Shown here piece after piece: positions 2,475 through 34,456 of a DNA stretch of 35,384 nt; the first letter of the stretch is position 1, and every line of letters begins with the position of its first letter. The notes under the pieces are model-generated. The model saw nothing but the letters and a program-made list of their open reading frames with translations, ran no database searches and had not been told where the DNA came from. The DNA comes from Sphaeroforma arctica JP610 (taxonomy: Eukaryota), in contig NW_014040557.1 of NCBI RefSeq assembly GCF_001186125.1, positions 72,533-107,916 of the forward strand, given 5' to 3'. Both the position numbers and the translations under genes were made by a program.

Positions 2475-2659
2475 ACATACAATGCGACTATTAAATATGT
2501 CGAGTGTAGCAAATGCGTATGACCGTACTAAAGATGCGCACGCAGTAGAGGGTCAGGAGTCTGAAAACACTACAGACTTAGAGCATACGCAAGTGGATTC
2601 TCAACACCCTACCTTTATTCTGGAAGAGCAGAATGAGAAAACATTCTCGCTTGGCTGAC

Positions 2660-3935
2660 GCAATATCATAAGCTGGAGCACCAGAACGTAGTAGAAGCAC
2701 TTAAAGATACCAAACGAAATGGGCTCGTGCACCCTAAGCTGGCAACTTTAGTGGATAAAGTATATCAGTTATGTACAGACTGTGATGTCAATCAGATCAA
2801 ACGCTATGGGTCTGCACCACTTAAGAGTGTGACCGAAGATGTTCCATGGCGCAGGGTCATTATTGATCTGGTTGACCTGCCCACGTCCGAGCACACAGGC
2901 GACCGTTACGTATGCCACTTCCTTGATGTGGCGTCACGGTTTAATTTGCTATATCCATTAAAGGATAAGAATACGCAGACCGTGGCAAAATTATGTTGCC
3001 AAGTCTTTGCTGACCACGGGTGGCCGGTTATTATGTGCACTGATAACAGTGGTGAGTTCTGCGATGACGTTATGGAATCGCTAGTACTCGTATCAGGCAT
3101 ATGCCATAAGAGAGGTGTGCCATATACGCCGCAAACGCAAGGCGCGAATGAAACGCGCCATAGTAGACTTAAGTTCTTCTTGCGTACTGCATTAACGGAT
3201 GATGCAGATGATTGGCCGTACCACCTTAAGTGGATACAAACACAGATGAACGAGTGTGCTGATCCGGTTACAGGAACTACACCCGCTCACTATTTTCGTG
3301 GCAGATAGAGTGAGTTACAAATCCCCTTTAACAAGGACGAACCTGATCACCATGAGTTACCATGGTTAGAGAAGGTCCAACGTATTTATAACGTTGTATA
3401 TCCTTGCTTGCGAGAAATACGCAATATAGCCTTATTAAAAAAGCAAAAGCGTTGGAACACTACCAAGAACATAGCAGAGTATCAGGTTGGTGACAGAGTT
3501 AACATCCGTCAACGTAATTCCGATACTACTGTAATAATATCTAAATGTATAGGTACATATATAATCTCTGTAGCAGACACTAAAAGTGGAACGTACGAGG
3601 GAAATAACCCCGATGGTTCTAGTGCGCTTAATATAGGCACAAGTCGTATTCCGACTACAAAGATTATACTCGCAAGAAGACATGAATCTAATGCCCTTCT
3701 TGATCGTTCTGAATTTAAAGACATTATATGGAGAACGGTTAAGGGAGGTTATACATACTATCGTACACGCTTTATAGACGGTACCATAGCTGAGTTGATT
3801 TCAGATGCTTTCGATAACCAAGACTATTTAAATACCTTTAATCGAAAATGGCGTAAACGCCTGCATAAGTCGCAAGCTGAGAAAAATAGCATGTTTCCAT
3901 CGTCTGAAGGAACGGAAGTTAAAATCGAGCCTTAA
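2660..3935 (+). pseudogene. Gypsy integrase (HHCC + rve DDE core + chromodomain-like C-terminus) with one premature stop
   Basis: YHKLEH...CTDC; PWRRVIIDLVDLP; FLDVASRF; WPVIMCTDNSGEF; PYTPQTQGANE. ORFs 2727-3308 and 3408-3935 share a frame, separated by TAG at 3306-3308 (TAT in the related copy at about 22487). The C-terminus FKDIIWRTVKGGYTYYRTRF...DAFDNQDYLNTF is chromodomain-like. Confidence 0.88.
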
Positions 3936-4185: not shown

Positions 4186-5062
4186 TATAATACGCCGGGC
4201 CTCCACATTAGACTATATGTTATAAACGTACTCTTAAGCAGTACGTAAATTATAAACGTACTCTTAATAGTACGAGGAACTTAAGTTTCCTAAATGTACT
4301 CTTAATAGTACGAAGAACCTAAGCTTCCTAAATGTACTCTTAATAGTACAAGGAACTTAAGTTTCCTAAATGTACTCTTAATAGCACGAGGAAATTAAGT
4401 TTCCTAAAATGGTTTTTAATGGTTTTATTAATTAATACCTTTTCCTTTTTTACATATCAGATATTAATAGAACTTAATTTACTTTCCAATTTTATTTATA
4501 TCTGAATACTTCGGTAGCGAGATGGCTCAACCGAATATAGGTTTCTAGGGACTATTAACGTTACCTAGTTAATCCTCCGATCAGCCAACCAGATGTGCCA
4601 GTCTGATGAAGGCTAAGTCGGTAATTCTTGATAGTGGCAAGTTATTGGTTGAGACAATAACTAAGGACATCAAGAGTACTTTTCTTTTTTTATTTCTTTT
4701 TTCTAAAGATAGGATTTTATGAGTCTCTCGGATTCGCCCCAACGAAACGTACCATAATTTCTAATAGAGCGACAACGAAACACTAAATAAAATCTCTTCG
4801 GCGTAAACAGTACTGAGAGGATTATATATAGGCAATGTCTCAGCCTCACAATCCCTCAGAATATCCTTTTTTCACGAGGCATACCTAACTTTACTAAACG
4901 TCTCATTTCGTTCATTTACCTTGATATTTACACGATACTTATAATTTGTCTACGCGTTTATTTATTCTAAGGCATTAGTATCGCCTTTATTAGACCGAAT
5001 TTTACACTAAGCGTTTAATTACTCTATGACGTTAATATCGCCTTGATAGACCGAATCTTACA
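4186..5062 (+). repeat. 3' LTR (about 877 bp)
   Basis: Colinear with the reverse complement of 33591-34456 and ends ...gaccgaatcTTACA. The start is mutated TG>TA. It contains a TATA-like TATATATA at about 4823. Confidence 0.92.
4258..4409 (+). repeat. 38-bp tandem repeat x4 inside the 3' LTR
   Basis: Unit gtactcttaatagtacgaggaacttaagtttcctaaat at 4258, 4296, 4334 and 4372. The other two LTR copies have a single unit. Confidence 0.93.
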
Positions 5063-8330: not shown

Positions 8331-9437
8331 TTTTGTGTTTCTTCAAGGTTGCAGTTCACTCAGCGCTATCTTCGTTTATATGTATTTTATATTCTTATCT
8401 AGTGTATTGGACCATACTTGTATAATGATGATTGTTGCGGTTGGTCTATGATCTGAGTGCTCGGCACATGTGACTCCACAATACCTTTCCGCTCCACTTG
8501 GAATTGTGTGAACTTATACCTCAATTATATTAATGTCTTGAACGCTGATCATCTGCTCTACGTTTATCTGTGATTGTGTGTACAAACGTACCCTTGCGAT
8601 TTTACAAATTATACAAACTTTTATATTTTTGCATATTGATGTCTTTCTATCTAAAGGTACCCGAGTATGCGTAAGTTATCTGTACTTATCGATCAAGTGT
8701 CTGTTTGTATTGATCTGTGTTTCTGAAACACCCTTGCTTCATTATTATGGTTTTTTCATAGACTACTTGAAATGTTCTCATCTATATTCATAAGCACTAA
8801 TGCCCCGTGCCAAAGCGCATGTTTGATATTATGAATATACCACGCCTTTCAAATGTAGAGCATGGGGCCAGTAGGATGTCGCTGGTATCAAGTATCATTC
8901 TTTAACGTGTACTGCGTTGTTTATTGTCCATGATTGTTCGCTGCATCGTGACTTAAGATATTTTTATTTATGGTGTTTGATATGTATTTCATTGCTAATT
9001 GATTTTTGGTAGTAAGGCATTGGTAACACGGCAGATGTAGCACAGTTAATTAGACGGGAAAGCCTCAAACACCTTTGCTGCCATATACCGTTGTCTTTTC
9101 TTGAGCGATTCTATGGTTGACAAGTTCTGCACACACGTTAGGATTCATTTGGATTCTGTTCTCACACATACTCATCCAACGGAGCTTGTTTTTCACAACG
9201 TCGTCGTCCATGTGCACCAACTTCTACACTGCCTCCTATGGCATATCTTTTATGTGACGACCTAGTAGTCGCTAGACTGGCGTTATGATAAGAAAATGTA
9301 TGTGCACAAAAAATGTAATCAGTACTGTGCTGCCCTTCCATGGTTTGTGGAATTGTACGAACCAAGCACTATGATAGCTTGTCTCCCCGTACTTAAGCAT
9401 AGTCTGCGATTCTTTACTTACAGATATATACTCCATC

Positions 9438-12400
9438 ATGAGCATAGTTACGTTCTTGGAGCACACGCTCTCCGCGAACGACAATGACCGTATCCAGGCC
9501 ACACAGTACCTCGAGCAAGCAGCTGAGGCCAACTTGGCTGAGTTATTAAAGGCTCTGGCCGAGGTGATACAGAGTGACAATGTGCCGGAAGGGCCCAGAC
9601 AAGCCGCATGTATTAGTTTTAAAAATCACCTCACAAGCAAGAACGAGACCAAGAAGCATTTTAATCAACAGCGATGGTTACACCTTGAGGCTCCGGTGCG
9701 AGCACATATTAAGAACATAATCCTGCTATCACTCAAGACACCCAACACCCGAGTGGGTGCCCAAGCCGCTCAGGCGGTGAGTGCTATCGCACAGGCGGAG
9801 TTGCCCCAGTCGCAATGGCCTGAGCTGATTCCCAGTTTGCTGCAGAACTGCACCGACCCACAGTCCCCCACACCCACAAAGCAGAACACGCTAGAGACGG
9901 TAGGGTTTATCTGTGAGGAGATCGACCCTATGGTGCTTAAGCAGTACTCTAACGATATACTCACGGCGATTGTGAACGGTATGCGCAAGGACGAGCCAAG
10001 TATGGATGTGCGCTTGGCCGCGACCCGAGCGATGTTGAACTCGGTGGACTTTGTGAAGACAAACATGTCCAATGAAGCAGAGAGGAATTACATCATGCAG
10101 GTCGTATGCGAGACCACACAGACACCTGGCAACGTACAGCTGCGTGTGCGTGCGATGGAGTGTCTCAACCGTATCGTACAGCTATACTACGAATTTATGA
10201 AGGTGTACATGCAGGAGGCTCTGTTCCAACTGACACTGCAAGCCATGAGGGAGGACGAAGACGAGGTGTGTCTGCAGGCCATTGAGTTCTGGTCCACGGT
10301 GTGCGACGAGGAGATGGAGATTGAGATGGGCATGTTGGATGCCCAAGAACGTAGTTACGAGCCAGAGAGGGTCAGCCAATACTATGCGCGAGGTGCACTC
10401 CCCCACCTGGTAGCTATTCTGACCGAGTTGCTGTGCAAACAGGATGAGAGCGATGACGATGCCGATGCATGGAACGTGGCGACGGCGTCAGGAGTGTGTC
10501 TGTCTCTGCTGTCTAACTGCTGTCGCTCAGATATTGTAGCGCCCATGCGTCCCTTTATTCTGGGTAACATCACAAACGCCTCGTGGCACCAGCGTGAGGC
10601 TGCTGTGCTGGCGCTGGGATGTATCCTAGAGGGTCCCGATGAGTCGCATCTGGAGGACATAGTGAGCTCATGCATGTCTGTGCTTACACAGCTGATGGCA
10701 GACCCGAAGGTACAGGTCAGAGACACTTGTGGGTGGACTATCGGACGCGTGTTCGAGTACCTGCCGCACGTTGTGCTCTCCGAGAATACGAATATGAATC
10801 CCCTTATTCAGGCACTTGGAAGTGGTATGTCGCTATGTTCGTGTTTGTTAATCGTTCGTTCTCGCGGTCAGTATTAGTGCCTTTAGTATAAGTTCCGACT
10901 TTTTTCACATGAAATAGCTGCGGTTAGGCGCTGTCCTTTTATAGATGTGTTTCATCGCGTGTCAATTTTATTCTGGTTTAGCTATATCCATATTGGGCGC
11001 AAACATCCAACTCATCCCAATATATATATATATATTACTACAGCACTGCAAGATGTCCCGCGTGTGGCCAACAATGTGTGCTGGACGATCAAGGCCTTAG
11101 CCGATGCCGCGTATGACACAGCTTCTGCACACTCCGATTCCGATGACGTCGAGACGTACACACTATCCCCATGCTTCGAGGTATGCACTATACTTTGATT
11201 GTTCTGCTTACATTGATATCTGCGGGATCAGAACACTGTAATGGGTTTCAATTCAAACTTGTGAATACGATTTATATTTGACGTGCGTTAACAACACGCT
11301 GTAACCTTGCCTGCAGTCAATATGAGTGCAAGCGTCAGGTTGAGAGTAAGCGCCTGAATTCTGTCGATGTGTCGCAATATTTTGTGACCGCGTTGTATTT
11401 GTCTCCATCATGCGGGCTCTGGTACTCTAGATGGAAAAAATAGTTGCTTGCTATATTTATATGCACACTCATCGCGACGAATGAATATGGTTAGATTCGA
11501 TTAACTTATAGGGAGAAAACTTAGATCCGCGAATAGTGAAGAAACCCAAACAGAGTAAACTATACTGTACCGGAATAGCGCTGTATGGCTTGGTGCTGAT
11601 CACACAGTATCAGACTTTTAAAGCGTTTCGAGTAGAACTTTATCGGTTGCTAGTATATCAAAAAGGTTACCTTCATGCATTGCGCGATGAGATGAGGGGC
11701 CGATTTCGAGTACTGCTAATTCTTGGGCGTTTAAATGAAGATTTTTAAGTCGTGGGTCCGCTTTTTACTCATCATCGCGTTGTATCAACCCCAAATCTTT
11801 ACAGAGCTTGGTGCAGGAGCTGTTGAAGACCACAGAACGTCCCGACGCCAACAACCAACTTCGTGTAGCCGCGTACGAGTGTCTCAACACTGTAATTCAG
11901 ACGGCACCAAATGACTGTTATGCTTATATCATTCAAACCACTGTCAGCATCATGGGACGATTGGAGAAGGCTTTGTTACCACATGACCAGGTACGTATCT
12001 TACGAGTGTCTCGGCTTGACACGTTCAGTATAGAGTAGTGTTGGTTGATATTCTGGTTTTCACGGCGCGCGACGTAACAACAACATGTGTGTAATGTCTC
12101 GTATATGTGTAATGTCTCGTCGCGCTTGAATGTATAAGAATGCATTATTTTTGTGAATGCAAGTCGGTATCTGCGTATCGATGGAGGCTGACATGAGTAT
12201 CTCTTGGAATACAAAAATGACCCAGTATGCGCAAAGGGACTGACAGTGACTCGAACCACACTGTTTATGCATTCAAGTTCAATCCGAAGTTTTTGTCTGC
12301 GAATGCAACAACTCATGTAGTAATCATGTGTCGTCGTGTGGGTGGGTGTATACATTATATATTCAGCTGTAGTCTCAAATTGTTTCATCTGCAGCATGTG

Positions 12401-13893
12401 GATCATTCCCTCCAACGTGGCCTTGACAATCAGCCATATCTAACTATTTTCGTCTCTTCACACCAATCCACTTTCGCACAGCTGCACAGCCAGGACAAGC
12501 AAGTGCACACCGAAGTTCAAGGTCTGCTGTGTGCTTCACTCTGTGCACTCATCAACAAACTACATCGTGAGGATCTGATGAAAATCTCTGATCAGGTGAT
12601 GCAGATCCTGTTGGTCATGCTACGCACAACCGACGCCCAGGGTGTGCACGAGGATGCGCTCAACGCAATTAGCGGTCTTATCTCCCAGTTGGAAGAGGAC
12701 TTTGAGAAGTACATGGAGCATTTCAAGCCATTCCTATTGGCCGGTATTGTGTCGAGCGACTACGCGATTGGCTGTCAGAGTGTGGGTATGACGGGAGACA
12801 TCGCTCGCGCCCTGGGTAGCAATGCACAGAAGTACACTGACGAGCTCATGAATCAGCTGTTACAGGCTTTGAACATGTCTACCTTGCCCCGCAATGTGCG
12901 ACCGGATATTCTGTCTGCATTCGGTGATATTGCTACGAGCATCGGCCCGTCTTTTGAAAAATATCTGCCTTTCGTCATGCCCATCCTGGTGGACGCGTCG
13001 AATGTCCCTGCGCCACAAAACCAGGTATAGGATGATAAAAAGTTGTTGTCATTGATGCACGTTGGTTGAGTTTTCATTTATCGGTAGTCTAGTCACGTTG
13101 TATTAGCTTTGTTCGATTTTTGTTTACAGGAGACCTATCGATGAGCAATTATGAATTGGTGAGTGTCGCCTATGCTTTTTGTGCCCTTGTTACTCGCAAT
13201 GCATCCCGCGGCTTCATGACCCATCAGAGGCGATGAAAGCGCGTTCAGTGTGTGTACACCGTAGACGCTCACAGCCTCTTTTTCTTTTTCGTTCTATCTT
13301 CACTTAGCCACGTATAATTAATGCGAACGTATTCTCTTACCCCAGAATGACTATGATGAGATCGAGTACGTCAACATGTTGCGCGATAGCACACTGGAGG
13401 CTTTCGCCGGTATCTTCGTTGCGATGAGAGGACATCCAGACACTGTCAGCCAGTACGTGGCACATGTGGCCTCGTTTATGTGCATATGCGCTAACGATGT
13501 TAACCACACCGACACGATGATTAAGGTGATCATCGGCATTCTAGGGTATGTTACATCTCTCTCTTTTTATCAGTTTAGTGTTGGAAGTAGAATGATGTGC
13601 TTGTGTTGTATTCTGTAGTACTTCGGAGTGTCGGAGAAGCGCTAGTTATGTAGTATTTTTATTGCGCAATTGCCGTGTACCGTTAAGGCGGTTTTTATGT
13701 ATTTTAATTCTGCTGTATTTTATTGCTCCACAGAGATTTGACGGACATGTACGGAAAGCAGATGAAGCCCACACTTGAACAGGCTTGGGTACAGCCTGTC
13801 TTGTACAAAGCCTCTAAGAGTAATTGCTCACTGACGAAGAACACGGTTGAGTGGGCTGGACAGCTGATACAAAAGGTTCTCAGGGAGAATTAG
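9438..13893 (+). CDS. KPNB1: Importin subunit beta-1 (karyopherin beta-1/Kap95); exons 9438-10824, 11044-11180, 11805-11990, 12482-13024, 13346-13545, 13734-13893; 870 aa
   Basis: N-terminal IBN_N (ATQYLEQAAEANL...KNHLTSK, QRW). Also AELPQSQWPELI, LETVGFICEEI, ILTAIVNGMRKDEPS, ERNYIMQVVCE, LQAIEFWSTVCDEE, acidic loop KQDESDDDADAW, VRDTCGWTIGR, ILSAFGDIA, DYDEIEYVNMLRDSTLEAF and GILGDL. All introns are GT-AG with consistent phases (1,0,0,0,2). The spliced length of 2613 nt is an exact multiple of 3. Confidence 0.96.
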
Positions 13894-14804: not shown

Positions 14805-15135
14805 AAATTACGCCTGCATTCATTTAAATGTAACTGCGAAGAGACATATGTAGTAACGCAGTTGTGATTAATAAAGGGTGAGATTCCCTTGCAACAGAAA
14901 CCTCCGTATTCTTTCCGAAACTGATCCCCATAAAGTACGCCAGCATTCATTTAAAAATGTCATATGTAACTGCGAAGAGTAAGAAGTGTCGCCTAAACTA
15001 TGCCTGCATTCATTTAAATATAACAGCGACGAGTAAGAAGTATCGCTTAAACTACGCCTGCATTTATTTAAATGTATCTGCGAAGAAATTATTAGTAGTG
15101 GCACAGTTATGATTGAATAAAGGTTGAGATTCCCT
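14805..15135. repeat. Degenerate minisatellite (core cgcctgcattcatttaaatgtaactgcgaaga, about 54-bp period, 4 copies)
   Basis: The core recurs at about 14811, 14938, 15001 and 15056. The flanking ...gagattccctt is repeated at about 14880 and 15126. Confidence 0.85.
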
Positions 15136-15649
15136 TACTTTGGTTATCGCAACTTTAAGACCCCTTTCGCTCCTGTAAGTATACAATATTTAGTACTAAT
15201 GTATCAGTTTGAAAATCGTCATACGTAATATAAGTGCTTAGCGTATAACGTTAACTCGACAAATCTACTGGGCGGGTCTTAAACCTAAAATCTAACATAG
15301 TCTCGAAAAACGAACATTGACAATATGGCAGTTGAACTTTTTATCCTGCAGAGGGTACATAAAGATATGTCTAAGGTGAGAATTGAAGCTAGAGATGAAT
15401 CGAAAGAAGTTTACCACTGTACAGGGAAAGAATATCTGAAGATATTGTAGAAGTAGATTAGACTGCAGGATTCTGACCCATTTCGAGTCAAGACCTGGTA
15501 CTTTATTAGGTTTTAGCTAACTGCTGTCTGAGCTCATTCCTCTTAACAGACTTTATACAAGAAGCCTTTTAATATTTGATGAAGCCGGTCTAATACCAAA
15601 AGGGATTTTCGACCCTAATTTGATCTTCAGACTTAGCCGGATTGGATCG

Positions 15650-16830
15650 TATTCTCTGGCTTAATTCTTAATCACCGAAGTGATACCTCAAAGAGAACAT
15701 GCTTGAATTATCTTTGCTGTATCTCTTTCGTATGGATATTTCGTGGACTATATAAATGTTATTTGCTCGATGGGTATCCGCATAGAGCGAGCTTTAATAC
15801 CATAAGCTTAATTGACTTGTATCCACCGATGGTTATTCCTTGTATAGAATGAATCGAGTTTGCTTTGGCTACCCGTACGGGGAGACTAACCCTTGAGAAT
15901 TTCTTGCAATCACAGCAGAGCAAATGTTGTCCTACATTAATACTTGAACCATCTACCTCCACCCCAACTCTCGAGTCATCATTTCCTTGCTTTGGTATGA
16001 ATGCTTTACCTTTGTAATCCACCATCTCGATCATGACCACAAGTTTATACATGACATCGCTGATGATACCCCTGAATTGATTGGCAAGCCTCATTTTCAC
16101 AAAAAGTATTAACGGTTAGCTTAGCCATATGCCAATGTCTAATTAATTTACCACCGGTATTGCTCCGGCCAAACCAAGTGTTTTAATATTCCCCACATAA
16201 GTTTACTTACCTTCAACTTTTTCGTCCGCATAGTATACCCTTCAGAAAAATTACCCATCACACATTCTACGTTGTACGTGTCTCTGTCTCGAATATAGCA
16301 TGTAAATATGGTAGTATCATCATTGATGCAACTTTCATCATATTCTGTGCATCCCCCTCGCTTTTAGTTCTGCTCACCTAGAAGGTGAAATCGCCCTATT
16401 CAAGGCGACACCATCTTCTGCTGCATCAGCGCATCAGTGGCCTCCAAATTTTATTTCACAGGTTTATCTGTCTACCAATGTTCGTATAATTCTGCTTTAA
16501 ATCGCCTACTAGACCTACAGCAGAAAGACGAAGGATTCATCCTGCTATACAATATTTCACCACAGCGTTGACAGGAGTGGCTGTGCATTGCTTCCCACCT
16601 CGACCAAAGGTACGTATTCCCTGGTCAAACGACTGAATAAGGCTAACCAATACATTGCAAATCCACCTACAATACCAGCTGCTGCACTTGTTAGTGCAGT
16701 TGTGGGCGACGAGTACGAAGCACCGGACTCGGTTTTTGCTAGGCTATCCGTAAGGTTTGAAATAAGCCTTTAAACAGTTCTGTGTGTAAAAACAGTTAAT
16801 CTCAACTGCTTGGTCCTGTCTAATAGAAGA
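15650..16830 (-). pseudogene. Pif1-family (Helitron-type) helicase remnant
   Basis: ALTSAAAGIVGGFAMY (motif Ia, about 16695-16650); IGRQ (motif IV-like); RLANQFRGIISDVMY..VVMIEMVDYKG (GLxNG.G.V); RVSLPVRVAKANSIHSIQGITIG (RxQxPL..A.TIHKxQG.T, 15893-15825). Walker A is not recognisable. Confidence 0.75.
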
Positions 16831-16859
16831 TGTTCTAATACGCTGTTCTTATAATTCGA

Positions 16860-19800
16860 TGCACGTCAGATGATGAAAATATACTTGAAGGTAAATGTAT
16901 CGTTTTGGCCGGTATTCGTTCTTACACCTCTAGACAGATACAATGGTTCATCGGCGTTATAGAATAAAATATCATACTGCTTCCCAAAGTTCTGCAAATC
17001 TCGTCAAATGTTCTATCGCCAAATCAATCCTATGCATACTCGGTATTTACGCTATGTATTGCTGCCTCGGTGAAGTTTTTAACACCTGATTCTCCGTCTA
17101 CACCAGGCTATTTTCAGTGAAGGGGGCATTGTCATCTTCTTCCCGAAACAAATCTATTGGCGCCATTTTTGTGTAACCGCTTATGTGGTGGACATAGGTT
17201 GCGGTGTCTCTAGTTATAGCCCATGCATCATGTGTAGCCTGCTCAATTATACGTATGACAGCATTGCATGCATATTCTAAAACATGGTTTTTCTCGGCTA
17301 GGCTCCAAAATCGGTTGAGGACCTCACGTTGGTCCAATTCAAAAGTTGTGCGATCCGCAACGAGTGATATTGTAAAAGTATCATCGTACCGCAATATTTA
17401 TCATCCAGTGGCCACGAAGCACGAAGTGGGTCGTGGTAGATTTGTCCATCATTGGTCTAAGTATGGCGTGAGTGTACATCGAGCCAAAGTAGAACGTATG
17501 TGTTGTTTCTATTCAAGTCTATCAAGGGACCGATAGTGTCCACTTGTATCTTGTCGCCCGGAAATGCAGCCGTTATTGATTGTAAGGGATGGAAACCCTT
17601 CTTGTGAGTTTGGTTCGTAAGACATGGTACACAGCCTTTAATGTATTGGTTTACATGTTCTTTCTAGCGGGACTATGTTGAAGTTTGTTCACTGTTTCTT
17701 CAACGGTGTAGTGGCCCACAGTTAAGGCAGTTCTGACTTCATATGTGAATGTGTCTAGCTCTGCCGACTCGTCCTTGGTTTATACCGACGCGATCTTTAT
17801 GGCTGGATGTGCTAGTTTTTAGTCAAGGTATGGTGATATTGTGTCTATCTTGGCTACTAGTGTGACTCCCCGTTGTGTTTTGTTTCAAGCTGACGTGCCG
17901 CCTTTCAGGAACGTGTTGTTCACGTTTTCGACTATCATCGGATCTTGTTCCAGTAGTGACAGGGATTTGGAAAACCACATTGCATTTGGGTGGTAGGGCA
18001 CATATGTTGTGATGTTCGTGGCTTACTCTGTGACTTTGTCAGAACGTATGGGATTAGCTCCCAGGAAGGATTCACCCATGCGTTTATTTCATCTGCCCAC
18101 TTTTGTAGTAAACTTTGCTGTGTGTGCACTGTGTGCTGCTGCAAATAAATCGAAAGTGAATTTTCAATCCTGCGTTCTGCCTCTTTGTAGAATCGTGGGT
18201 GTAGTTCCAGTCTATGGCAAATACCAGCATGGGCATGTTTGTTTCAAATTTAGTATATTCTTGACCGTTGTGTGTATTCTCGTTGGCTTCCTTCAGCACA
18301 ATTGATGTTTGGATGTTGAAGGTATCTTCGTGCAATCGTGATAGCACGTCGGCAACTTGATTATTTTTACCTGGCACGTGTATGATTGTGAAGTGGTGAT
18401 GGAATGTTTTTGCGATCCACTTTGCTAGCATGGGATGCAGTGTTTGCTGTTTATTCATTTGGCATAGCGCCTTGTGATCTGTCTACAATGTTATATCGCC
18501 TCCATTGATGTACTCCGAAAAATATTCTAGACTGTATACCATCGCTAGTAAATCTTTTGTATTCGTCCCATATCTTTGTTGTGCGGAGTTTACGCCTTTT
18601 GAGAAACAGAGTATATTTCGTCTGACCCCGTCTATGATTTGAAATAGGCAGTCTCCTATGCCATATTATATTGCATCATTAATGATCTGGAACGGTATTC
18701 AATCTACTGGATACGCCAATGTTGCTGAACACGCGATAGCATCGTTGAGTTCTTTTCATTTCTTAACAAGTTCAGCTGTCCAAAGATTTGCTATATTCTG
18801 GTTCATTTTTCCTTTCATGAGATTTCGGAAGTGTTTCGTTATGGGTGCAAACTGGGGTATGTGGTCCCGCATGTAGTTTGCTATGCCGACTGCTCGATGT
18901 AAGTCTCTTTTGGTTCTTGGTAAAGGCCAGTCAATCACGCGTTTATGTTTTTCGGAGTCTGTTTTGAGCCCTTGTTTTGTAACTTTGACGCCTAGTATAT
19001 TGTCTGTCTTGGCTGCAAAAGCACATGTGTTGTGGTTCAACCTGAAGTTGGCCGAGTTAAGTCATTTGATAACTTCTCGTACTGTCTTCCTGTGTTCCTC
19101 TTCGGTGAGGCTGACAATGACTTGTACGCCTTTAATGACAATGAGTAGGTTGGTTATTTCCCTTTGGAGCTGTGCTGATAGCGAGTGTAGTCCGAATGGT
19201 GCTGACTTAAATGAGTACTGTGCCTCTCTCCATAAAAAGTGAAAAAGTGTTGGCTATATACGAAAGCGGTGGAAGCCTCCTGTTAAGTCCAATTTGGAAA
19301 ATTGTGCATCTTGTAGATTGTGTAGTACTTCTTTCACTTTTGGCAATACGATTTTGCCTTGTTCAAGGTGATAGTTGACTTCTCTCAAGTCCAAAAATGT
19401 GCGTACTTTCTTCAGTAGGCCTCTTTGTTCAAATTCACCTGTTGACAGTAGTGGTAGATTCACATGTGTTGGTTTTGTTCTCCTGCATATGTGCCCCTCT
19501 TTCACCCATTTCTGTACATTGCCATCTGTCTGGGGTATGTATTTGTGTAGAACAAAGTTCACTTCAGCGTGTCGTATATTTTTGGCTTTGACTACTTGTC
19601 TCGGTGTATCCACAACTGACCCTGGTAGATTGGAGTGTACATAAGGTGTAATCATGCCGTTTTGGTCTAATAAGTTTGATAGCGATAATCTGAAACCTTC
19701 TTGCTCATGTTCAGGGTCTTCGTCGTGCGGTGTAAAAGTGATTCCCATTTGGCATCTGTTGGTATGAGTGAATTAATTATCCCCGCTGAACATATGCCCA

Positions 19801-20270
19801 AGTATGGTAAATTATCCATACCTAAAAGTATTGTGAATTTTTGTTTGGGAGGTCGAGTACCTGAAAGCAGTTTGATGCTTTTCTACCACCTTAGTTTATA
19901 TCACATACTTCTGTGGAACCTGTATGTTGTACTCGTGCATCAGATTGTGCTAGCTATATGTAGCTGAGTGACAAAGATGGTTCATTTACGACATTGCGAT
20001 CCGTGCATGAGTGTTGTGCTCCTGAATCTACCAGTGCATTGTATGTAGTGTTATAGATATGTATGTCTATGTACAATCTTTGGTCTCGTGGGTTAGGAAT
20101 TAAGAATAAGGTGTATAAGCAATATTATTCGCATTTAATAACAACGTTTGTTCATCAGTGTGTGCATTCACAATGTCTACCATGTTTACCATGTTAGCCT
20201 CTGCCCACCAAGCCTATCAAATTTCTTCGTCCATTTCTTGCACCTTGTTGCCATTAGTGATGGTTAACTG
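16860..20270 (-). mobile_element. Decayed Ty3/Gypsy pol: protease-RT-RNase H-adenine MTase-like domain-integrase
   Basis: PR: NALVDSGAQHS (about 20040-20010) and ILLGMDNL. RT: VRTFLDLREVN, FSKLDLTGGFHR, YSFKSAPFGL, DWPLPRTKRDLHRAVGIANYMR. RH: TDHKAL, KW..HFTIIHVPGKNNQVADVLSR. INT: VGHYT...YIKGCVPC...GFHPLQSITAAFPGDKIQVDTIGP...LLWLDVHSR. Multiple stops and frameshifts; no LTRs seen. Confidence 0.92.
17843..18214 (-). pseudogene. DIRS-type DNA N6-adenine methyltransferase-like domain within Gypsy pol
   Basis: Joining frames gives DW/LHPRFYKEAE/KFTFDLFAAAHSAHTAKF/LLQKWADEINAWVNPSWELIPYVLTK/NITTYVPYHPNAMWFSKSLSLLEQDPMIV. DLFA is at 18151-18140 and NPSW at 18072-18061 (one C>T away from NPPW). 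Confidence 0.8.
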
Positions 20271-20278
20271 GTCTACAA

Positions 20279-21389
20279 GAATTTAAAAATTGTATTTGGT
20301 AGTCAGCAAGCTAAGGCCTAAAAGCTATTGCAGTAAACTACAAGCCCACCCCAGTAAACCTTGCACTTTTGGCCGTGTGAATCTAAAACTCAGTATTTGT
20401 TAATCCTGGGTTTTGGGTTTTGTATTGGCTTTTCTGATAATCTGGTCCCTAGATGCTACATGGCAAAAACGATAAATCAACTCGTCGATCGGTAACTGCA
20501 ATGACTAGACCAGGTACTGAACAGGGAACAACTTCCACGCTCGGATAAATATCTTTTTGTGTACAGACAAGACTCGAAATAGGGGGTTTTATTTTCTTTC
20601 TGATTATGCACGAATAACGAGTTGGTTTGATATATTGTGAATATAAGAGCAGCCTTCACTGATTTAGAAACGAATATATTTGGTAGTTCCACTTGTTAAA
20701 TGCCAAAAGATATGATTGTGTTTCATGTTTACTACTTATTATTTTGAATCCACTTTGACCATCATAAATTCAAAGGGACCCCTTTCTTAAGACACGGATA
20801 TATATAACAGCTATGGCTGTGTCTATGGTCAAATAACCTCCAATGTAGTAGGTATGTAAGCAATTCGCTCTTTACATACCAGTATCTTGCCTTTTAAAGG
20901 ACATCACGGGGCAGAGAGAATACGACTCAAGGGACCCGTACAGGTTTCCGAAAAGATCTCTGTATTGGTCCTGTATAATCATAGGAACGCGCATTGGAAC
21001 TTAGCGATTGTCAAAGTGGACAAAACAGACGCTATAAATACTATTTTAGATGGTATGCGAAGTTCTGCTATAGCTGACTATCGATTCCGTTGTATAGTAC
21101 GATGGATGAAATCCTACCTCACAATGTTACATACAGCTTTAAAGTCGGCGGTGTAACCGTACACGACAGTTTTATATGTGTAGTTTTGCTTGGTGCGTAT
21201 GGTAGTACGTATCATAAAATCCACAACTCGTGCATGATTTGGAGGCATTGGGTTTGCACGACCATGTCACAAGGGCTCAACATGACGACAGAATTTGAAA
21301 ATTGTATTTGGTAGTCAGCAAGCTAAGGCCGAAAAGTTATTGCAGTTAACTACGAGCCCACCCCAGTATACCTTGCACTTTTGGCCGTG
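20279..21389 (+). repeat. 99-bp direct repeats (20279-20377 and 21291-21389), 1012 bp apart
   Basis: gaattt.aaaattgtatttggtagtcagcaagctaaggcc...gcccaccccagta.accttgcacttttggccgtg occurs twice with few mismatches. Confidence 0.92.
20887..21210 (+). pseudogene. Ulp1/C48 cysteine peptidase-like fragment
   Basis: VLYNHRNAHWNLAIVKVDK...TILDGM (HW.L...D) is followed in another frame by VHDSFICVVLLGAY (degenerate Q.D...CG). Confidence 0.55.
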
Positions 21390-21714
21390 GACAAGTTCAG
21401 TTCTGATGGGACCTTGAGAAAAAATCGAGTTCGTTTGGATACGATCCCAATCAATGCGCTTATATTAACATATCTTCAACGAGGAGCGCAGCGCTGGTAA
21501 AGTCGAAATCTAGAACACGTTTCCCAACGTATACATAACTTTTAGCCTTCACGCGAGATTGGATTAGATGAGTCTTCAAGCCGTGGACGAGTTCAGTTTT
21601 GATGGGACCTTGAAAAAAAAATCGAGTTTGTTTGGATACGATCCCAATCAATGCGCTTATGTTAACATATCTTCAACGAGGAGCGCAACGCTGATAAAGT
21701 CGAAATCTAAAACA
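21384..21714 (+). repeat. About 134-bp direct duplication (21384-21517 and 21580-21714)
   Basis: gccgtggac.agttcagtt.tgatgggaccttga...tttggatacgatcccaatcaatgcgcttat...aagtcgaaatcta.aaca occurs twice. Confidence 0.92.
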
Positions 21715-23045
21715 TATCACGCGCTCGGACACGCGCCTTTGCGACGCGTAGCTGAAGACGAGCCGTGGCGCCAGAGTTATCATCGATTTTGTTAAGTTGC
21801 CCACGTCCGAACACACAAAAAAATAAGCATGCCATGTATTTGATGTTGCTTCGCGATGTAACGTATTATACATACCCCTTGAAAGATAACTCAACTCGAA
21901 CTGGCATTTAGTCATTTACGTTGTTTTTTTTGCAGATTTTAGCTGGCCAGCTTTCGTGTGCTCTGTGTTTGGACAAAATCAGCAATGTCATTTGTCTTTT
22001 CAGATACAACTACATTTCGGTACACAGAGGAGAACTATCAACTGACAGGTGTCATGAGACATGAGGTGTCGATAAGTTCCAAAAAGTGACATATATTTAC
22101 AACTTACATGTGAATACATAAAACTCGTGGATGTACATATATAAAGCCCTCAGTAGAGGTATAAATAAAGTTACTCTCTACTCAGTATATTATATGGTTC
22201 TATATGTTGAAACACACTGACAATGGTAGTGAGTTTACAGGCGATGTCATGAAGTCACTGTTAATCGTTGCTGGCACATGCCACAAAATGGGTGTACCCT
22301 ATAAGACTCAGACACAAGGTGCTAATGAGGTGAGACATCGTAAGATGAAGGCGTTTAAGCGAAGAGTGCTACTAGATGATGCTGACTTGTGACCACACTC
22401 GATTAATTGGGTACAAACACAGATAAGCAACCCAACGGATTCAGTTAACACAGGTACAACGCTAGCTCACTATTTCAGGGACCGTTATAGTGAATTACAA
22501 GTCCGTACTATCTAGAAAGCTCGAACATATGTGCTACCATGATCAGAGAAGATGCGTAGAATTAGAGTTGTAGTCTTTTCTTTGTTTGATAGATATGAAG
22601 TATGTCGCTATGGAAAAGAGGCAGAAGCGATTTAATGGTTCCTAGAAAATAGTCGAGTTTAGGTCGGATATATAGCCAACATTTTGGCACGTGATTCTGA
22701 CATAACTGTGCTTACGGCGTGTAGTATATTTAACCGTTCATGATTTCAATGGCCGATAAAAAGGGAAGAACGTATGAAGTCAACAATAACGTTGATGGCT
22801 CAAGTGCCTTTAACATCGGGATGATCGCATTGCAACGATAGAATTCTTCCTTCGCCACACACATGAGGCTGTTAGACCTTTATGTCTTACGAGATTAAGA
22901 AGATACTTGGGAGTACAAACATGATAACACTACATACTACACAAGAGATGGGGCATAATAGCGATCTACTACCATCAACATTTGATGACTCAAACATATT
23001 GTAAGATTTTCATAAGAGTTTTTGTAAACGCCTACACAAAACTGA
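21540..23045 (+). pseudogene. Second decayed Gypsy integrase, related to 2660-3935, interrupted by a solo LTR
   Basis: YHALGHAPLRRVAEDEPWR, LPTSEHT, FDVASR, CTDNGSEF, GVPYKTQTQGANEVRH and GTTLAHYFRDRYSELQ are colinear with the first integrase. Confidence 0.85.
21966..22214. mobile_element. 249-bp solo LTR of a different family with 5-bp TSD
   Basis: TGTTT...AAACA ends; TSD CTCTG/CACTG (21961-21965 and 22215-22219); internal TATAAA and AATAAA. Removal restores the integrase F-V-C-T-D-N-G-S-E-F. Confidence 0.82.
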
Positions 23046-27240: not shown

Positions 27241-27297
27241 CATCGATAAGGAAGAGAGCCCAGTAGTGTTGACCGAGGATGACCAATATTAGGACCA

Positions 27298-29318
27298 ATG
27301 AGGATGACGCTCTTCAACCCACAAGGACTCAACATGGACAACGCAGCACATACAGATAAGTGTCTGAACGTTGTATCGATTTTGAGTCAGGTTGATGTTC
27401 TGTGTGTGGTTGAAACCTGGCATAACACCACATTTCTTAATCATATACGTTCGAACACACACTACCATGTTCTACATCACGCTACACGACATAATATCTT
27501 ACACCCTTCACACTGTGGTATTGGCATTTTTTCCAAACACCATCCATCGAAATTTCAACTTGTACATTCCTCACCGTACGCGGTGTTCTTTGTGTGCTTT
27601 GGGCGTTCATATGGCCGTGTTCTACCTTCTACTCAAATTACTTACTGAAGAAGACGTCAGGCTATACATGAATCCCCCCGAGATTGGCAATTTCCAACCA
27701 GATGTCGTTTGGGGAGATTTCATTTTCAAAGCCCAGAAGTATGGCCATACATCCACAAATCACGGACTACGTATGAAAACGATCGAGACTACTCTGCGTA
27801 ATACGTGGCACTTGGACTACCTCCATGCTGGCGGCTCAACTGGTACAGAACATGCGTATCATCGGCCTACCACCTCCGCCTCCCTCCAGATCTATAAGCA
27901 GAAGGACTACGGTATCTGTGGTGACCACACCTTTGGACTCGATCTCCAGATACTTCCAATGAATCAAATCCATCGGCCCCAACAAATGCCAACAATGCCG
28001 CCGCCTCCGAACCAACGCCTCCCCTCTCGTGGATATAACCGATACCGCCATCGACTGTATCACCTACGCAACAAATCCCGCGCGCGACTATTCCAAGCCA
28101 AAATCCGGGCACATCAGAACCTACTACGGTCGGATTTAACTTTGTACGGATCAGCGGAAGGGCAGCTACGAATCCTCGACCGCATTTGGCGCTATGCCGC
28201 TAACTCACAAATCTTCGAGGGTTTCTACTATGACTTAAACAGACCCTGGGTTCAGCGGCTGCCAAACCATTCGTTCCGCCCACGTCTGACCGCCCAAAGC
28301 AATGCTCAAATGTTCAAATATATTGCGTACCAACGACGGTCTCCGCGCCAACCCTGCATACCGGGTGCCGATGACACAGGCGCTACCCTCGCTGGCTACT
28401 TTGAGGACCTATTCAACTATACAAACCTGTACGTGGTTCCACCGGATACCGAACCCTCGCCCGATGTCGCTTCCACCATACGCCCTGACAATGTAATGGA
28501 GGCTATACTACGATATCCCTATAAGGGACCTGGCCCCGACGGGATTCACATCCTCCTCCTGGAGACCGCAGTGGAGCGCTCCACCGAACGCAGGACATTA
28601 GGACGCCCCGACGCCAATAGCCCACTGATTAGACTCCTTGCCGAAGCATTCACTGAGCTACAGAAGGCGGGTACCTTCCCTGCAGCCCTGAACTGCAGCC
28701 TCCTGACAGCGCACCCAAAGAAAGCTGATGCAGATGTAACCCCTCCCCCGCCTAGTCAGACGCATCTTTGAAAAGTGCTTTCTTAAGCTGATTGCGAGCC
28801 ACCCCAGCTCTGCTACCCATGCTACCCAAGCTGGCTTCAAATCACGATACTCCTGTCATACCCAAGCATTCGCCGCCATGGAATCTGAGACATAGTCAGA
28901 AGAGGAGTGGAACGACTTCTGTCTGGACATTACCAAGGCATACGACAATGTTGCTCTCCCACGCCTATGGGTACTCCTGCGCCACGTTGGAATGCCCGAA
29001 AACTGGATCAACTGCCTTTGCGCGCTATTTGAGAGGGTCCCTACCCGAGTGACATACCGCTGCACGCTCGTGCCTCTATTCCATATAACGAATGGCATTC
29101 TACAAGGCTCAATCGTCGGCCCCCGGCTCTTTACTATCTACACGGATTCCTTAACTGTCACGCTAGCACAATTTCGGCCCAAGCTCCTCCGCTCTTATTT
29201 ATTTGTCGATGACACACGGATCCAAGCCCCCCAACCGGTTCCGCTCCAGCCCTTCTTAAGCGACATTGATGCGTGGGGACGCAAATCTGACCTCGAACAG
29301 GGTGTCATTGAACCCTGA
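27298..29318 (+). pseudogene. LINE ORF2: APE endonuclease + reverse transcriptase, frameshifted and 3'-truncated
   Basis: EN: TLFNPQGL, DVLCVVETW, GIGIF, WGDF, LDYL, GDH. RT: KGPGPDGI, PKK, IFEK, QAGF, LDITKAYDNV, GILQGSIVGPRLFTIY and FVDD (29202-29213). Confidence 0.93.
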
Positions 29319-30314: not shown

Positions 30315-30410
30315 TTGTAACTTATCTCTTTTGAAATAAATAAGATTATCTCTACAACGGCTATGAGAGACATTGTAACCTAGCTTTTTGAAATAAATGA
30401 TATTATCCCT
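30315..30410 (+). repeat. Putative LINE 3' tail with tandemly duplicated ttgtaac...tttgaaataaat..attatc unit
   Basis: Two copies of the unit are present, and the sequence is shared with 6849-6960. Confidence 0.6.
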
Positions 30411-31900
30411 ACCATGGTCGCTACGGGTACCATGGTTTGAACTGTGTAAGTCACTGTTACAGGTGGAACCACTGTTAGTTCCACGAACACCACTTATGTT
30501 TTCGAGGTACGCGAAGTATGCCTGCGGGGAGATGCCGTGGGGCCACACAGTGATTGCAAGGTTGGGGCCGACCACGGGCTTTGTATTCGACGAGTCTTCT
30601 CAGGAACGCCACGTTCTTTGCTATATCACAGATGTCTGGGTACGTCCCGTGAGATACCGGTCGCTCTATCCAGCACTGAGGCACAACAAGCTTTCGCGAA
30701 TACTACACCAGCAGAACAGCAACGTCGGACAAACAAGGATACCACGGTACGTCGGACACGGTAGACCAGCTACAACTGAACGGTCATGCTGACCAGGTGA
30801 ACAGAAGCTAAACGACAGTGTAGAGCGTGTTTGGGCTAGTACACTCTGAAAGGATTCCATCCTATGATTGGCATCGACACCCGATATCCGTGAAATAATA
30901 TCCAAGTGAACTATATCCCCATGCTAGTCATGTCACGGCGGAAGAATATTTTTTTTTTCACGTGTTGGACGTCGCTTCAGGATAATCAATCCCAAAGCGG
31001 CACCGAACAAGTCTAAAGATACCACTGCACAGACGTTGATGGCTATCTATGATGAACAAGGGTTCCCCCGTATGATGCAGTCGAATATGGGGTCGGAATT
31101 CGTCAACTAAGTGGGCTATTATGCGTTTGATTTCTCCACCATATAACCCACAAGTCTTAAGGACGACGGAATGGCAACACAAGGAGATCATCCGGTCGAT
31201 ATGAATATGCTGTGGAGCAATTCCTCAAGCATGGGACGAGCTTTTACCATTCACAATGTCATATCAGAACCTGCAGATCTCCCGGCGCTACAAGAGTGTA
31301 CCTTTCAGCGTGTATATCGGTCGACGACACGTACTATTTGCGGATTTCATCAACGTCTCCCTGAATAGCCAGACAGTGACCAATAACTTTTGGGTCCAAC
31401 GGTTGGACAAGCTGCCGGACGCCATTCTGCCGACACTCCCACTAGATCACCAAGTATACGGATAACCTCACGAAGACGTCTGATCGCCTACATGCTCACA
31501 ACTTGGTTCATTTCAAAATAGGGGACGTGGTGATGGTGAAGTCGGAAGGCCCTAAAGGTCCGTTGTTTGGACCATATGTGGTAAAAAGCCCAGAATGGGC
31601 AGTTCTTCGACCTGTCCACGCAGGACAGATTGATGCTTATCGAGTTCAAAGGCCGACCTGCACGTGCCGAGCTCTTACGCTTAGCCCACAAGAACACTGA
31701 CCATCTGTTAGAAAAGACTATATGGCGAGACGGTGGTTCAGCATTCCGACATATTATACGGCATCGCACCAACGACGACACTGACAAGGTTGAGTGTCTC
31801 GGGCGTTGGCGGGAAGGAGAACACCGACGTGGGGAACATAAGAAGCTTTTGATGACGCTAATGACATTGTGACATACCACAAAGACTCACAGACACCGTC
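30409..31900 (+). mobile_element. Decayed Gypsy pol 3' part: MTase-like C-terminus, integrase, chromodomain
   Basis: LPWSLRVPWFELCKSLLQVEPLLV...GHTVIARLG (30409-30567) aligns with 18001-17843. Then YVGHGRPATT, FHVLDVASG, GFPRMMQSNMGSEFVN, SPPYNPQ, FKIGDVVMVK..GPYVV and the chromodomain-like FRHIIRHRTNDDTDKVECLGRW. Confidence 0.85.
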
Positions 31901-33590
31901 GAAGAAACGGGTTTTATTTACCCAGCTGTTTCACTTAAACTTACAGACCCCGCTCGAGAGAGCAATAATAACCGAGTCCTCTAGCTCTCTGATGTTAAAT
32001 GCCAGCCGAGCTCCAGCTCGCTGAGGATTAATGCCAGCGGATTCCTCATGTTTGTGATACTAAGTATAATTTTCCCTTTCTTTCTTTTTTAAGCTGGCAC
32101 AAGTACCGTGCTTCAACTTTGGGGTGGGTGGGTTTGTGGTAATAATACTTAGGATTAAGATAATTTTAGGAATAAACTTGGTTTGTCCGATCCGATTTGC
32201 TGATCGGATTTTAAACACATGCCAACTTATCAAATTATATCTCACAAGCTAATAATTAATAAATAGACAACGACCCCCTTTGAATGAAGGAGGTTGTACG
32301 TTGAGGTGCTGTTATCTTGGCGTATTTACTACACCAACAATAACTAGACGCTCTTGTTGAAAAGTTGGATAGTTGATCTGTAATGTATTCGTAGCCCTGC
32401 TAAAGAACTGCACATACCTCACGTTCCCAAATTAGTTGATACAATACGCTGTAACTACCATGAACGGTATCCTATCTTTTGGTTGCTGGACGACTGTTTT
32501 GAGCTGCTTAAAGGCATCATCACATTTTTTTTTGTCTATAAAGATATTAATTTACCCTTGTGACACAAGTATTCAAAAGGCTTAAGATAACTTGCTAAAT
32601 ATGGAACTCCATCCGACAGACAGTTGACGAAACCCCACATGCTGCTCACGTTCTTGCCGGTGGTAGGTGTTCTTCATTCTAGTAAGTGTTCGATCTTTCC
32701 GATATCAATCATGATTCCTTCTATCTCGCTGACGCCAAATTGTCATTTCTTGCTACTGATTATACAGTTGTGTTTGTTCAATCTGTTTATGTCATGTTCT
32801 TCTTTGGTATTCGGCGATATATCTATACGTTATCCATGTCTAGAACCAAATCATGCATGATCTGTCGTAAGAACGCTGGTAACATGTGCACAACAAACGG
32901 TACCCCCTTAAACGAATATTTTTGCCCATCCTAGGTATTTGTGAATTACTTCCTATGCTGCTTAAATATCTTCATCTGGTGGTAGCCTTGCTTTAAATCG
33001 ATAGTGGAGAAGCTTTTAGCTCCAACCATATGTCACAGCCATTCGATAATTCTCTGTAGGTGAGGTTTTTATCTTGGAATGAGTGCGTTTATTTTGCTCA
33101 AATCAAAACACACTCGAAATCATTCAGTGTCCCATCTGAAATAAAATGGTCTACTGCCAAGAGTGCCAGGTTTACGGGAGTGAGTTCGTAGTTGACTGCG
33201 ATTACTCCAACTTCCAACCAGGTCTTGACTTGTTCTCTAACTACCTGTTCGTGACGCCAAGCTACGTAGTTGCGCGTCCGACGTTTTGACTTCGAAAAGT
33301 CTACGTTAGTAATGTCTAAAGCTCACATACCTGCTATTGAACTTGAACTTAGCCCAATCTTTAATCTTGAGCCCCAATATAAATTTCGAAGATCAAATCC
33401 CCAACTTTGTCTGTGACTGTAGATATCATATCTCTCACAGTCTTTGAAGGCTTATATACAAACTTCAGTAAGTTGTCATCTGACTAATCCTTCTGTGGGT
33501 CGATGTTGGTTGGTGAACATGGAATAGTTATACCTAACGACAACAAGACTCACATACCTACTATTAAATCATAATCTGTTGAGGTGTTGC

Positions 33591-34456
33591 TGTAAGTTTC
33601 GGTCTATCAAGGCGATATTAACGCCTTAGAGTAATTAAACGCTTAGGTTAAGTCTAAGTATAGTTAAATTCGAAATAAATAAACGAAATGAGTCTTTTGG
33701 TAAAATTTGGTATGCCTCGTGAAAACAGCAATACTCTGAGGGATTGTGAGGCTGAGACATTCCCTATATATAATCCTCTCAGTACTGTTTTCGCCGAAGG
33801 GATTTTATTTAGTGTTTCGTTATCGCTCTATTAGAAACTATGGTACGTTTCGTTGGGGCGAATCTGAGAAACTCATAAAATCCTATCTTTAGAAATATAA
33901 AAGAAAAGAAAAAAGAAAAAAAAATACTTTTGATGTCCTTAGTTATTTTGGGGCGAATCCGAGAGACTCATAAAATCCTATCTTTAGAAAATTAAAAGAA
34001 AAGAAAAAAGAAAAATTCTCTTGATGTCCGTAGTTATTGCATTAACCAATAACTTGCCACTTGTCAAGAATTACCGACTTAGCCTTCATCAGACTAGCAC
34101 ATATGGTTGGCTGAACGGAGGTTAAACTAGGTAACGCTATCAGTCCCTAGAAACCTATATTCGGTTGAGCCATCTCGCTACCGAAGTATTCAGATATAAA
34201 CAGATTTGGAAAGTAAATATAGTTCTATTAATAGAACTAGACCAAATCTCATGTTTGGTATTTTACTGGGGCCTTTTAATGGCCTTGTCCAAATATCTGA
34301 AATGTAAAATGGAAAAGGTATTAATTAATAAAACCGTTAAAACCCATTTAGGAAACTTAAGTTTCTCGTACTATTAAGAGTACGTTTATAGTTTGCGTAC
34401 TGCTTAAGAGAGCACGTTTATAACATAGAGTCTAATGTGGAGGCCCGGCTATTACA
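33591..34456 (-). mobile_element. Solo LTR (866 bp), same family as 2213-5062
   Basis: Reverse complement of 4186-5062 with TGTAA...TTACA ends; 4-bp TSD TTGC/TTAC (33587-33590 and 34457-34460, one mismatch). Confidence 0.93.
33853..34038. repeat. Tandem duplication (95 + 91 bp) within the solo LTR
   Basis: ttggggcgaatc.gaga.actcataaaatcctatctttagaaa...gatgtcc.tagttatt at 33853 and 33948. The 4186-5062 LTR has a single copy. Confidence 0.92.

What the first reader, a model, noticed from the sequence alone, without database searches (positions are those of the whole stretch)
17843..18214. Ty3/Gypsy retrotransposon with an N6-adenine DNA methyltransferase-like domain between RNase H and integrase
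Seen in sequence: on the minus strand, after the RNase H end (HVPGKNNQVADVLSRL) and before the integrase zinc finger (VGHYT...CVPC), frameshifted segments read DW.LHPRFYKEAE..KFTFDLFAAAHSAHTAKF...QKWADEINAWVNPSWELIPYVLTK...YVPYHPNAMWF. Established knowledge: this motif order (W.L...DLFA...W...NPP[FW].LI..vL.K...P.W....W) is the phage Dam-like adenine MTase domain that follows RNase H in DIRS tyrosine-recombinase retrotransposons, and [DN]PP[YFW] is the amino-MTase catalytic motif. Gypsy pol is normally PR-RT-RH-INT without it. Inference: this is a DDE-integrase LTR element with PR-RT-RH-MTase-INT, which could mark its own cDNA or target sites with 6mA or 4mC. I do not know of this architecture being described for Gypsy elements. 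This copy is dead (frameshifts; NPSW is one C>T from NPPW).
Basis: partly seen in the sequence, partly recalled or inferred. Interest (0 to 1): 0.92.

Follow-up and report, generated by a model that had tools for sequence, protein, structure and literature searches.

The report
Dead methylase-carrying Gypsy retrotransposon copy
This is a broken copy of a Gypsy-type jumping gene in the protist Sphaeroforma arctica that carries an adenine-methyltransferase-like domain between RNase H and integrase; the design is real, but a 2026 preprint already described such elements in this very species.

Summary
Observation confirmed; novelty not. The minus strand holds a decayed Ty3/Gypsy pol (protease-RT-RNase H-Dam-like domain-integrase, about 20190-17430). 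Intact relatives, 72-74% identical over RT-RNase H, carry all domains in one 1288-aa frame, with Pfam Dam above cut-off and NPPW. The window copy aligns colinearly with them across both junctions, so the domain belongs to the family and is not a stray DIRS piece. The neighbouring importin-beta exon is 100% identical to Sphaeroforma arctica SARC_00012. The RT falls in a Dam-bearing clade that includes Abeoforma whisleri proteins. This matches the 'Ichthyosporean DAM-LTR lineage' of bioRxiv 10.64898/2026.05.21.726589, which names this species and reports 6mA enrichment on its DAM-LTRs but no activity in E. coli. This scan also reported the architecture before, on other genomes. Two additions: the predicted fold is closest to the RNA cap methyltransferase PCIF1/CAPAM, not T4 or E. 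coli Dam, and intact relatives end in a degenerate chromodomain-like motif. The substrate is unknown and this copy is dead.

The parts
19772..20192 (-). Pol N-terminus and aspartic protease (ALVDSGA), broken by frameshifts and stops
   Evidence: tblastn with P0004; protease profile 107 bits
18933..19415 (-). Ty3/Gypsy-type reverse transcriptase; YVDD segment deleted in frame, stops present
   Evidence: 220 bits; tree
18318..18725 (-). RNase H, with stops
   Evidence: Pfam RT_RNaseH 68.4 bits
17822..18214 (-). Dam-like (PF05869 / PCIF1-like fold) N6-adenine methyltransferase domain; four frameshifts, two stops, NPSW instead of NPPW
   Evidence: Pfam, model and fold on the intact relative P0004
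17429..17740 (-). Integrase zinc finger and start of the catalytic core; the copy breaks off here
   Evidence: paralogous contigs run on beyond about 17440-17470

Best explanation
The stretch is the decayed Dam-like methyltransferase domain of a dead, truncated Ty3/Gypsy retrotransposon copy in Sphaeroforma arctica, and in intact family members this domain likely methylates adenine N6 in the element's own new cDNA or RNA-DNA intermediate. Shown here: domain order, family-wide presence, conservation, methyltransferase fold, host species, and that this copy cannot make the protein. Inferred: the domain is made within Pol and packaged in the particle; it would bind SAM through DLFA and use NPPW; the seeded 6mA would be kept up by host AMT1 after integration and keep new copies transcribed (the preprint's model). 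Odds: identity as an ichthyosporean DAM-LTR about 0.95; DNA or hybrid 6mA writing about 0.45.
For: Intact single-frame relatives with Pfam Dam between RNase H and integrase: P0004 53.8, P0005 56.2, P0006 47.5 bits, cut-off 28.1. Colinear alignment over RH-Dam-ZnF-INT, 230 of 342 and 219 of 341 identical. Between P0004 and P0006 the domain is 60% identical, like RT (59%), while two linkers are 14% and 12%. All 12 database proteins in the window RT's 14-row clade (SH-aLRT 98) carry the domain with NPPW (11) or NPPF (1), and all 12 fall in one 16-row group of the Dam tree. S. arctica paralogue SARC_09892 keeps NPPW in one frame and SARC_05614 joins the Dam C-half to the zinc finger. Model pLDDT 95.4 with a class I methyltransferase fold. 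The preprint reports more 6mA and more expression on S. arctica DAM-LTRs than on other LTRs.
Against: No activity was shown: heterologous eukaryotic DAMs did not raise 6mA in Dam-deficient E. coli (preprint). The preprint says these domains lack part of the target-recognition region. The closest solved fold is an RNA enzyme, PCIF1/CAPAM. Iyer et al. (PMC4738411, passage) judged DIRS1 MTase domains likely inactive. No LTR pair or gag was found for this copy. I could not compare it with the preprint's own sequences, so lineage membership rests on host, architecture and tree.
Confidence: 0.85

Rival explanations
1. The domain is a PCIF1-like enzyme that acts on RNA: it would methylate an adenosine in the element's own transcript (cap-proximal or internal) rather than DNA.
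For: Best Foldseek hits are CAPAM structures (6irw E 5e-5, TM 0.67) while E. coli Dam ranks 50th (TM 0.37). VIA: CAPAM Z 10.4, rmsd 2.9, 132 aligned; T4 Dam Z 8.2, rmsd 3.1, 107 aligned; most rows between them are rRNA methyltransferases. The top sequence hits in PDB, though weak (E 0.18, 1.3), are PCIF1. Iyer et al. place DIRS MTases in the PCIF1 clade. The DNA assay in E. coli was negative.
Against: A shared fold does not give the substrate. By sequence the domain matches phage DNA methyltransferases (Pfam Dam, phrog_111 E 3e-13). The preprint's 6mA enrichment is on DNA copies.
Confidence: 0.25
2. The domain is catalytically silent and is kept as a nucleic-acid or protein-binding module, for example to recruit host AMT1 or RNA polymerase II machinery.
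For: Iyer et al. predicted DIRS1 MTases inactive; negative E. coli assay. Earlier scan notes, unchecked, report DAM-LTRs with a lost catalytic motif.
Against: NPP[WF] is kept in 12 of 12 clade members, with a DxFA- or DxxA-type motif beside it. 107 of 149 homologues have NPPW or NPPF; 37 show no such motif, and some of those may be partial.
Confidence: 0.25
3. An independent DIRS fragment was inserted into this one Gypsy copy.
For: The domain is homologous to DIRS-type MT domains.
Against: Intact relatives hold it in frame at the same place. Paralogous contigs bridge RNase H into the domain and the domain into the zinc finger (table 8). No tyrosine recombinase hit in six frames of 15001-23003. 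The RT lies outside the DIRS-type clade.
Confidence: 0.01

Closest known systems
Ichthyosporean DAM-LTR lineage (Fernandez-Moreno et al., bioRxiv 10.64898/2026.05.21.726589; whole main text read, figures and supplements not seen)
   Same: Same host species (S. arctica), Ty3/Gypsy RT, Dam-like domain with NPP triplet in Pol, clade shared with Abeoforma whisleri proteins.
   Different: This copy is dead and truncated. The preprint says the lineage lacks chromodomains, whereas intact relatives here end in a degenerate chromodomain-like motif below the Pfam cut-off. Its text does not state where the domain sits in this lineage; it gives 'flanked by integrase and RT' for the Chloro-Ochrophyta clade.
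DIRS1-type retrotransposon MT domain (PMC4738411 and PMC6338049, passages read)
   Same: Homologous domain placed directly after RT-RNase H.
   Different: Here the RT is Ty3/Gypsy-type and a DDE integrase follows in the same frame; no tyrosine recombinase was detected.
PCIF1/CAPAM cap-specific adenosine N6-methyltransferase (PDB 6irw, 6irx)
   Same: Closest solved fold in both structure searches; weak sequence match over the DLFA region.
   Different: About 17-19% identity; only the catalytic core aligns (132 of 482 residues); substrate of the element's domain untested.
Phage Dam family PF05869 / phrog_111
   Same: Sequence match above the Pfam cut-off in intact relatives.
   Different: Only about positions 12-107 of the 169-position Pfam model align; embedded in a retroelement polyprotein.

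Membership tests
Ichthyosporean DAM-LTR lineage | Host among Pirum, Abeoforma, Sphaeroforma arctica | tested here: met
   Importin-beta exon 100% identical to S. arctica SARC_00012; next hit 77%
Ichthyosporean DAM-LTR lineage | Ty3/Gypsy-type RT with DDE integrase in Pol | tested here: met
   RT tree; best PDB match of relatives is Ty3 Gag-Pol, E 2e-68; rve above cut-off in P0004-P0006
Ichthyosporean DAM-LTR lineage | Dam domain (PF05869) in the same reading frame as RT | tested here: met
   3 of the 3 closest relatives; window copy colinear but frameshifted
Ichthyosporean DAM-LTR lineage | Groups with other ichthyosporean DAM-LTRs | tested here: met
Ichthyosporean DAM-LTR lineage | No chromodomain | tested here: inconclusive
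   No Pfam Chromo above cut-off in P0004-P0006 (P0006 17.4 bits against 25.1), but weak matches to HP1 chromodomains (best E 7e-4) and a custom profile scoring over 3 bits in 9 of 11 proteins; region absent from this copy
Ichthyosporean DAM-LTR lineage | Long terminal repeats and gag | tested here: inconclusive
   No flanking repeat pair or gag found for this truncated copy; no genome or DNA of relatives held
Active amino-methyltransferase | NPP[YFW] catalytic motif and SAM-binding motif | tested here: inconclusive
   Present in 12 of 12 clade relatives; this copy reads NPSW and is frameshifted
Active amino-methyltransferase | Methyl transfer to adenine | not testable with these tools
   Preprint's E. 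coli test negative
DIRS tyrosine-recombinase retrotransposon | Tyrosine recombinase, no DDE integrase | tested here: not met
   No recombinase hit in six frames of 15001-23003; integrase follows the domain
DIRS tyrosine-recombinase retrotransposon | DIRS-clade RT | tested here: not met
   31 RT-Dam proteins without integrase (read by me as DIRS-type) form a separate clade, support 100

The most novel reading that the evidence does not exclude
The 'Dam' domain of these Gypsy elements is a minimal PCIF1/CAPAM-like enzyme that methylates the element's own RNA or RNA-DNA replication intermediate, which would explain why it fails on bacterial chromosomal DNA; the lineage also keeps a cryptic chromodomain, pairing a writer with a chromatin-targeting module.
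Probability: 0.25. Interest if true: 0.7.

Novelty: already known. Interest (0 to 1): 0.17.

Why it matters
If the family's domain is active, these elements write an activating mark on their own copies, the reverse of the usual silencing of transposons. That idea is already in print for this species, and this dead copy does not test it.

Tried and rejected
No whole genome is held for this window, so copy number, LTRs and gag were not examined genome-wide. Pfam and PHROGs scans of single-frame pieces found no Dam match; the pieces are short and broken. A single-sequence fold of P0051 was unusable (pLDDT 35). A word-based search with the P0004 Dam region found only 3 proteins among 94 candidates; the HMMER search found 2333. 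No RNA holder was listed for the stretch; run X9 is only guessed to be RNA, so expression was not assessed. Summed contig depth is not a copy number and was not used as one. The RT tree is the quick IQ-TREE search, without bootstrap; the careful search did not finish. Rows with an RT match under 110 residues or 15 bits were dropped, and no clade test was run. The Dam tree is FastTree on 58 chosen rows, so no donor or order of events is claimed. Look-ups of earlier scan notes by place, by sequence and for PCIF1/Sphaeroforma returned nothing. The protein atlas gave no result for this domain.

Full report
Observation. Six-frame translation shows the quoted peptides on the minus strand in three frames, between the RNase H end and the integrase zinc finger. 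Contigs from 4 of 4 runs laid, from up to four studies, match the domain with no differences or gaps, so the breaks are genomic. Pfam does not see the broken pieces. A profile of four intact relatives scores 89.5 and 36.5 bits there, against at most 1.8 bits in 30 shuffled windows. A profile of 144 more distant homologues scores 31.2 and 22.8 bits; these were found with the P0004 domain, so they are distant but not wholly independent.

What it is. A search with the window's RT-RNase H gave 46 long proteins among 4017 candidates. The top three (74%, 72%, 54% identical) carry PF05869 Dam between RNase H and integrase in one frame, above the Pfam cut-off, with NPPW; a fourth, distant hit has Dam at its N-terminus; the other 42 list no Dam. 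A frameshift-aware alignment runs colinearly through RNase H, the domain, the zinc finger and the start of the integrase core at 64-67% identity, with four frameshifts and two stops in the domain. The RT has lost its YVDD segment and the integrase stops near 17430. Paralogous contigs from the same organism's runs bridge both junctions of the domain. Between P0004 and P0006 the domain is as conserved as RT (60% and 59%) while two linkers fall to 12-14%, which points to purifying selection (inference).

Host and lineage. The importin-beta exon at 9435-10838 is 100% identical to Sphaeroforma arctica JP610 SARC_00012. In a quick RT tree of 95 rows the window RT sits with P0004-P0006 inside a 14-row clade (SH-aLRT 98). 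Its 12 database members all carry the domain, 10 with a detected integrase; it lies apart from 31 integrase-less RT-Dam proteins that I read as DIRS-type. All 12 have NPPW or NPPF and group together in a Dam tree. Named relatives are Abeoforma whisleri (P0190 and P0193 in the RT clade, P0196 in the Dam group) and S. arctica (SARC_09892, SARC_05614, SARC_12119, found as close Dam hits). Of 149 homologues examined, 13 show the order RT-RH-Dam-INT.

Fold. An AlphaFold2 model of the P0004 domain from a 60-row alignment has pLDDT 95.4. Both structure searches rank PCIF1/CAPAM first: Foldseek E 5e-5, TM 0.67; VIA Z 10.4, rmsd 2.9 over 132 residues, with the next row at Z 9.3, T4 Dam at 8.2 and E. 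coli Dam at 8.1. By sequence the domain matches phage DNA methyltransferases. So it is an amino-methyltransferase fold whose substrate the structure does not settle.

Mechanism. Shown: the domain is a fixed, conserved part of Pol in this family and this copy is dead. Inferred: made within Pol and packaged, the domain would methylate adenine in the new cDNA or RNA-DNA hybrid, and host AMT1 would keep the mark and the copy transcribed (about 0.45). Rivals are an RNA substrate (0.25) and a non-catalytic binding role (0.25).

What is known. Fernandez-Moreno et al. (bioRxiv 10.64898/2026.05.21.726589; whole main text read, figures and supplements not seen) report Dam domains in Ty3/Gypsy elements, define an ichthyosporean lineage in Pirum gemmata, A. 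whisleri and S. arctica, find more 6mA and expression on these elements in S. arctica, propose the seeding model, and report no activity in E. coli. Iyer et al. (PMC4738411, passages) place DIRS MTases in the PCIF1 clade and call them likely inactive. PMC6338049 (passages) lists DAM domains for DIRS polyproteins. Other papers were seen only as search listings. Earlier scan notes report the same architecture on other genomes; I had found the preprint before reading them.

Differences from the published description. The intact relatives end in a chromodomain-like motif: weak hits to HP1 chromodomains (best E 7e-4), Pfam Chromo 17.4 bits in P0006, below cut-off, and a custom profile scoring 3.8 to 23.1 bits in 9 of 11 proteins tested. 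The scores for P0004 and P0005 alone are marginal, and this copy lacks the region. No LTRs or gag were found for this copy.

Verdict. A real feature, correctly read, but an ordinary dead copy of an element class already described in this species. Interest 0.17.

Noticed in passing
P0226 and P0231 (database proteins): Two Ty1/Copia-type polyproteins (RVT_2, Pol_BBD, copia gag) carry a Pfam Dam domain above cut-off with NPPW, one after and one before the protease region. The preprint's main text has no occurrence of 'copia' or 'Ty1'; a literature search gave one listing, on Bari transposons, not read; no scan note held all the words. Possibly an undescribed Copia-Dam class; host unknown; the preprint's supplements were not seen.
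   Followed up: partly
window 30397-31577 (+): A second, more diverged DAM-LTR remnant: C-terminal half of the Dam-like domain, zinc finger and integrase. No NPP motif survives upstream.
   Followed up: partly
window 2637-3935 (+), 21336-22823 (+), 32327-33582 (-): Pieces of another family of the same clade, closest to P0194 (53% over the integrase); the RT at 33 kb groups with P0194 on a long branch.
   Followed up: partly
window 4194-5062 and 33591-34410: About 90% identical inverted pair with 38-bp tandem units, lying just after the integrase at 3935 and just before the pol at 33582; likely LTRs of the P0194-like family.
   Followed up: no
C-terminus of P0004-P0006 and clade relatives: Degenerate chromodomain-like motif in a lineage described as lacking chromodomains.
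   Followed up: partly
window 20278-20460: A very high-copy short repeat with a sharp end at 20460 and many different flanks in other contigs, sitting where this element's gag would be; 100 bp of it recur at 21290-21389.
   Followed up: no
window 9378-13030 (+): Host importin-beta gene in several exons, S. arctica SARC_00012.
   Followed up: yes
window 27283-29318 (+): Broken non-LTR (LINE-like) element: RVT_1 at 28896-29315, preceded by an endonuclease-like frame (by eye, not tested).
   Followed up: no
P0208 and P0210: Polyproteins ordered Exo_endo_phos - Dam - RT - RNase H - integrase zinc finger; an unusual mix of an endonuclease/phosphatase domain with an LTR-type Pol.
   Followed up: no
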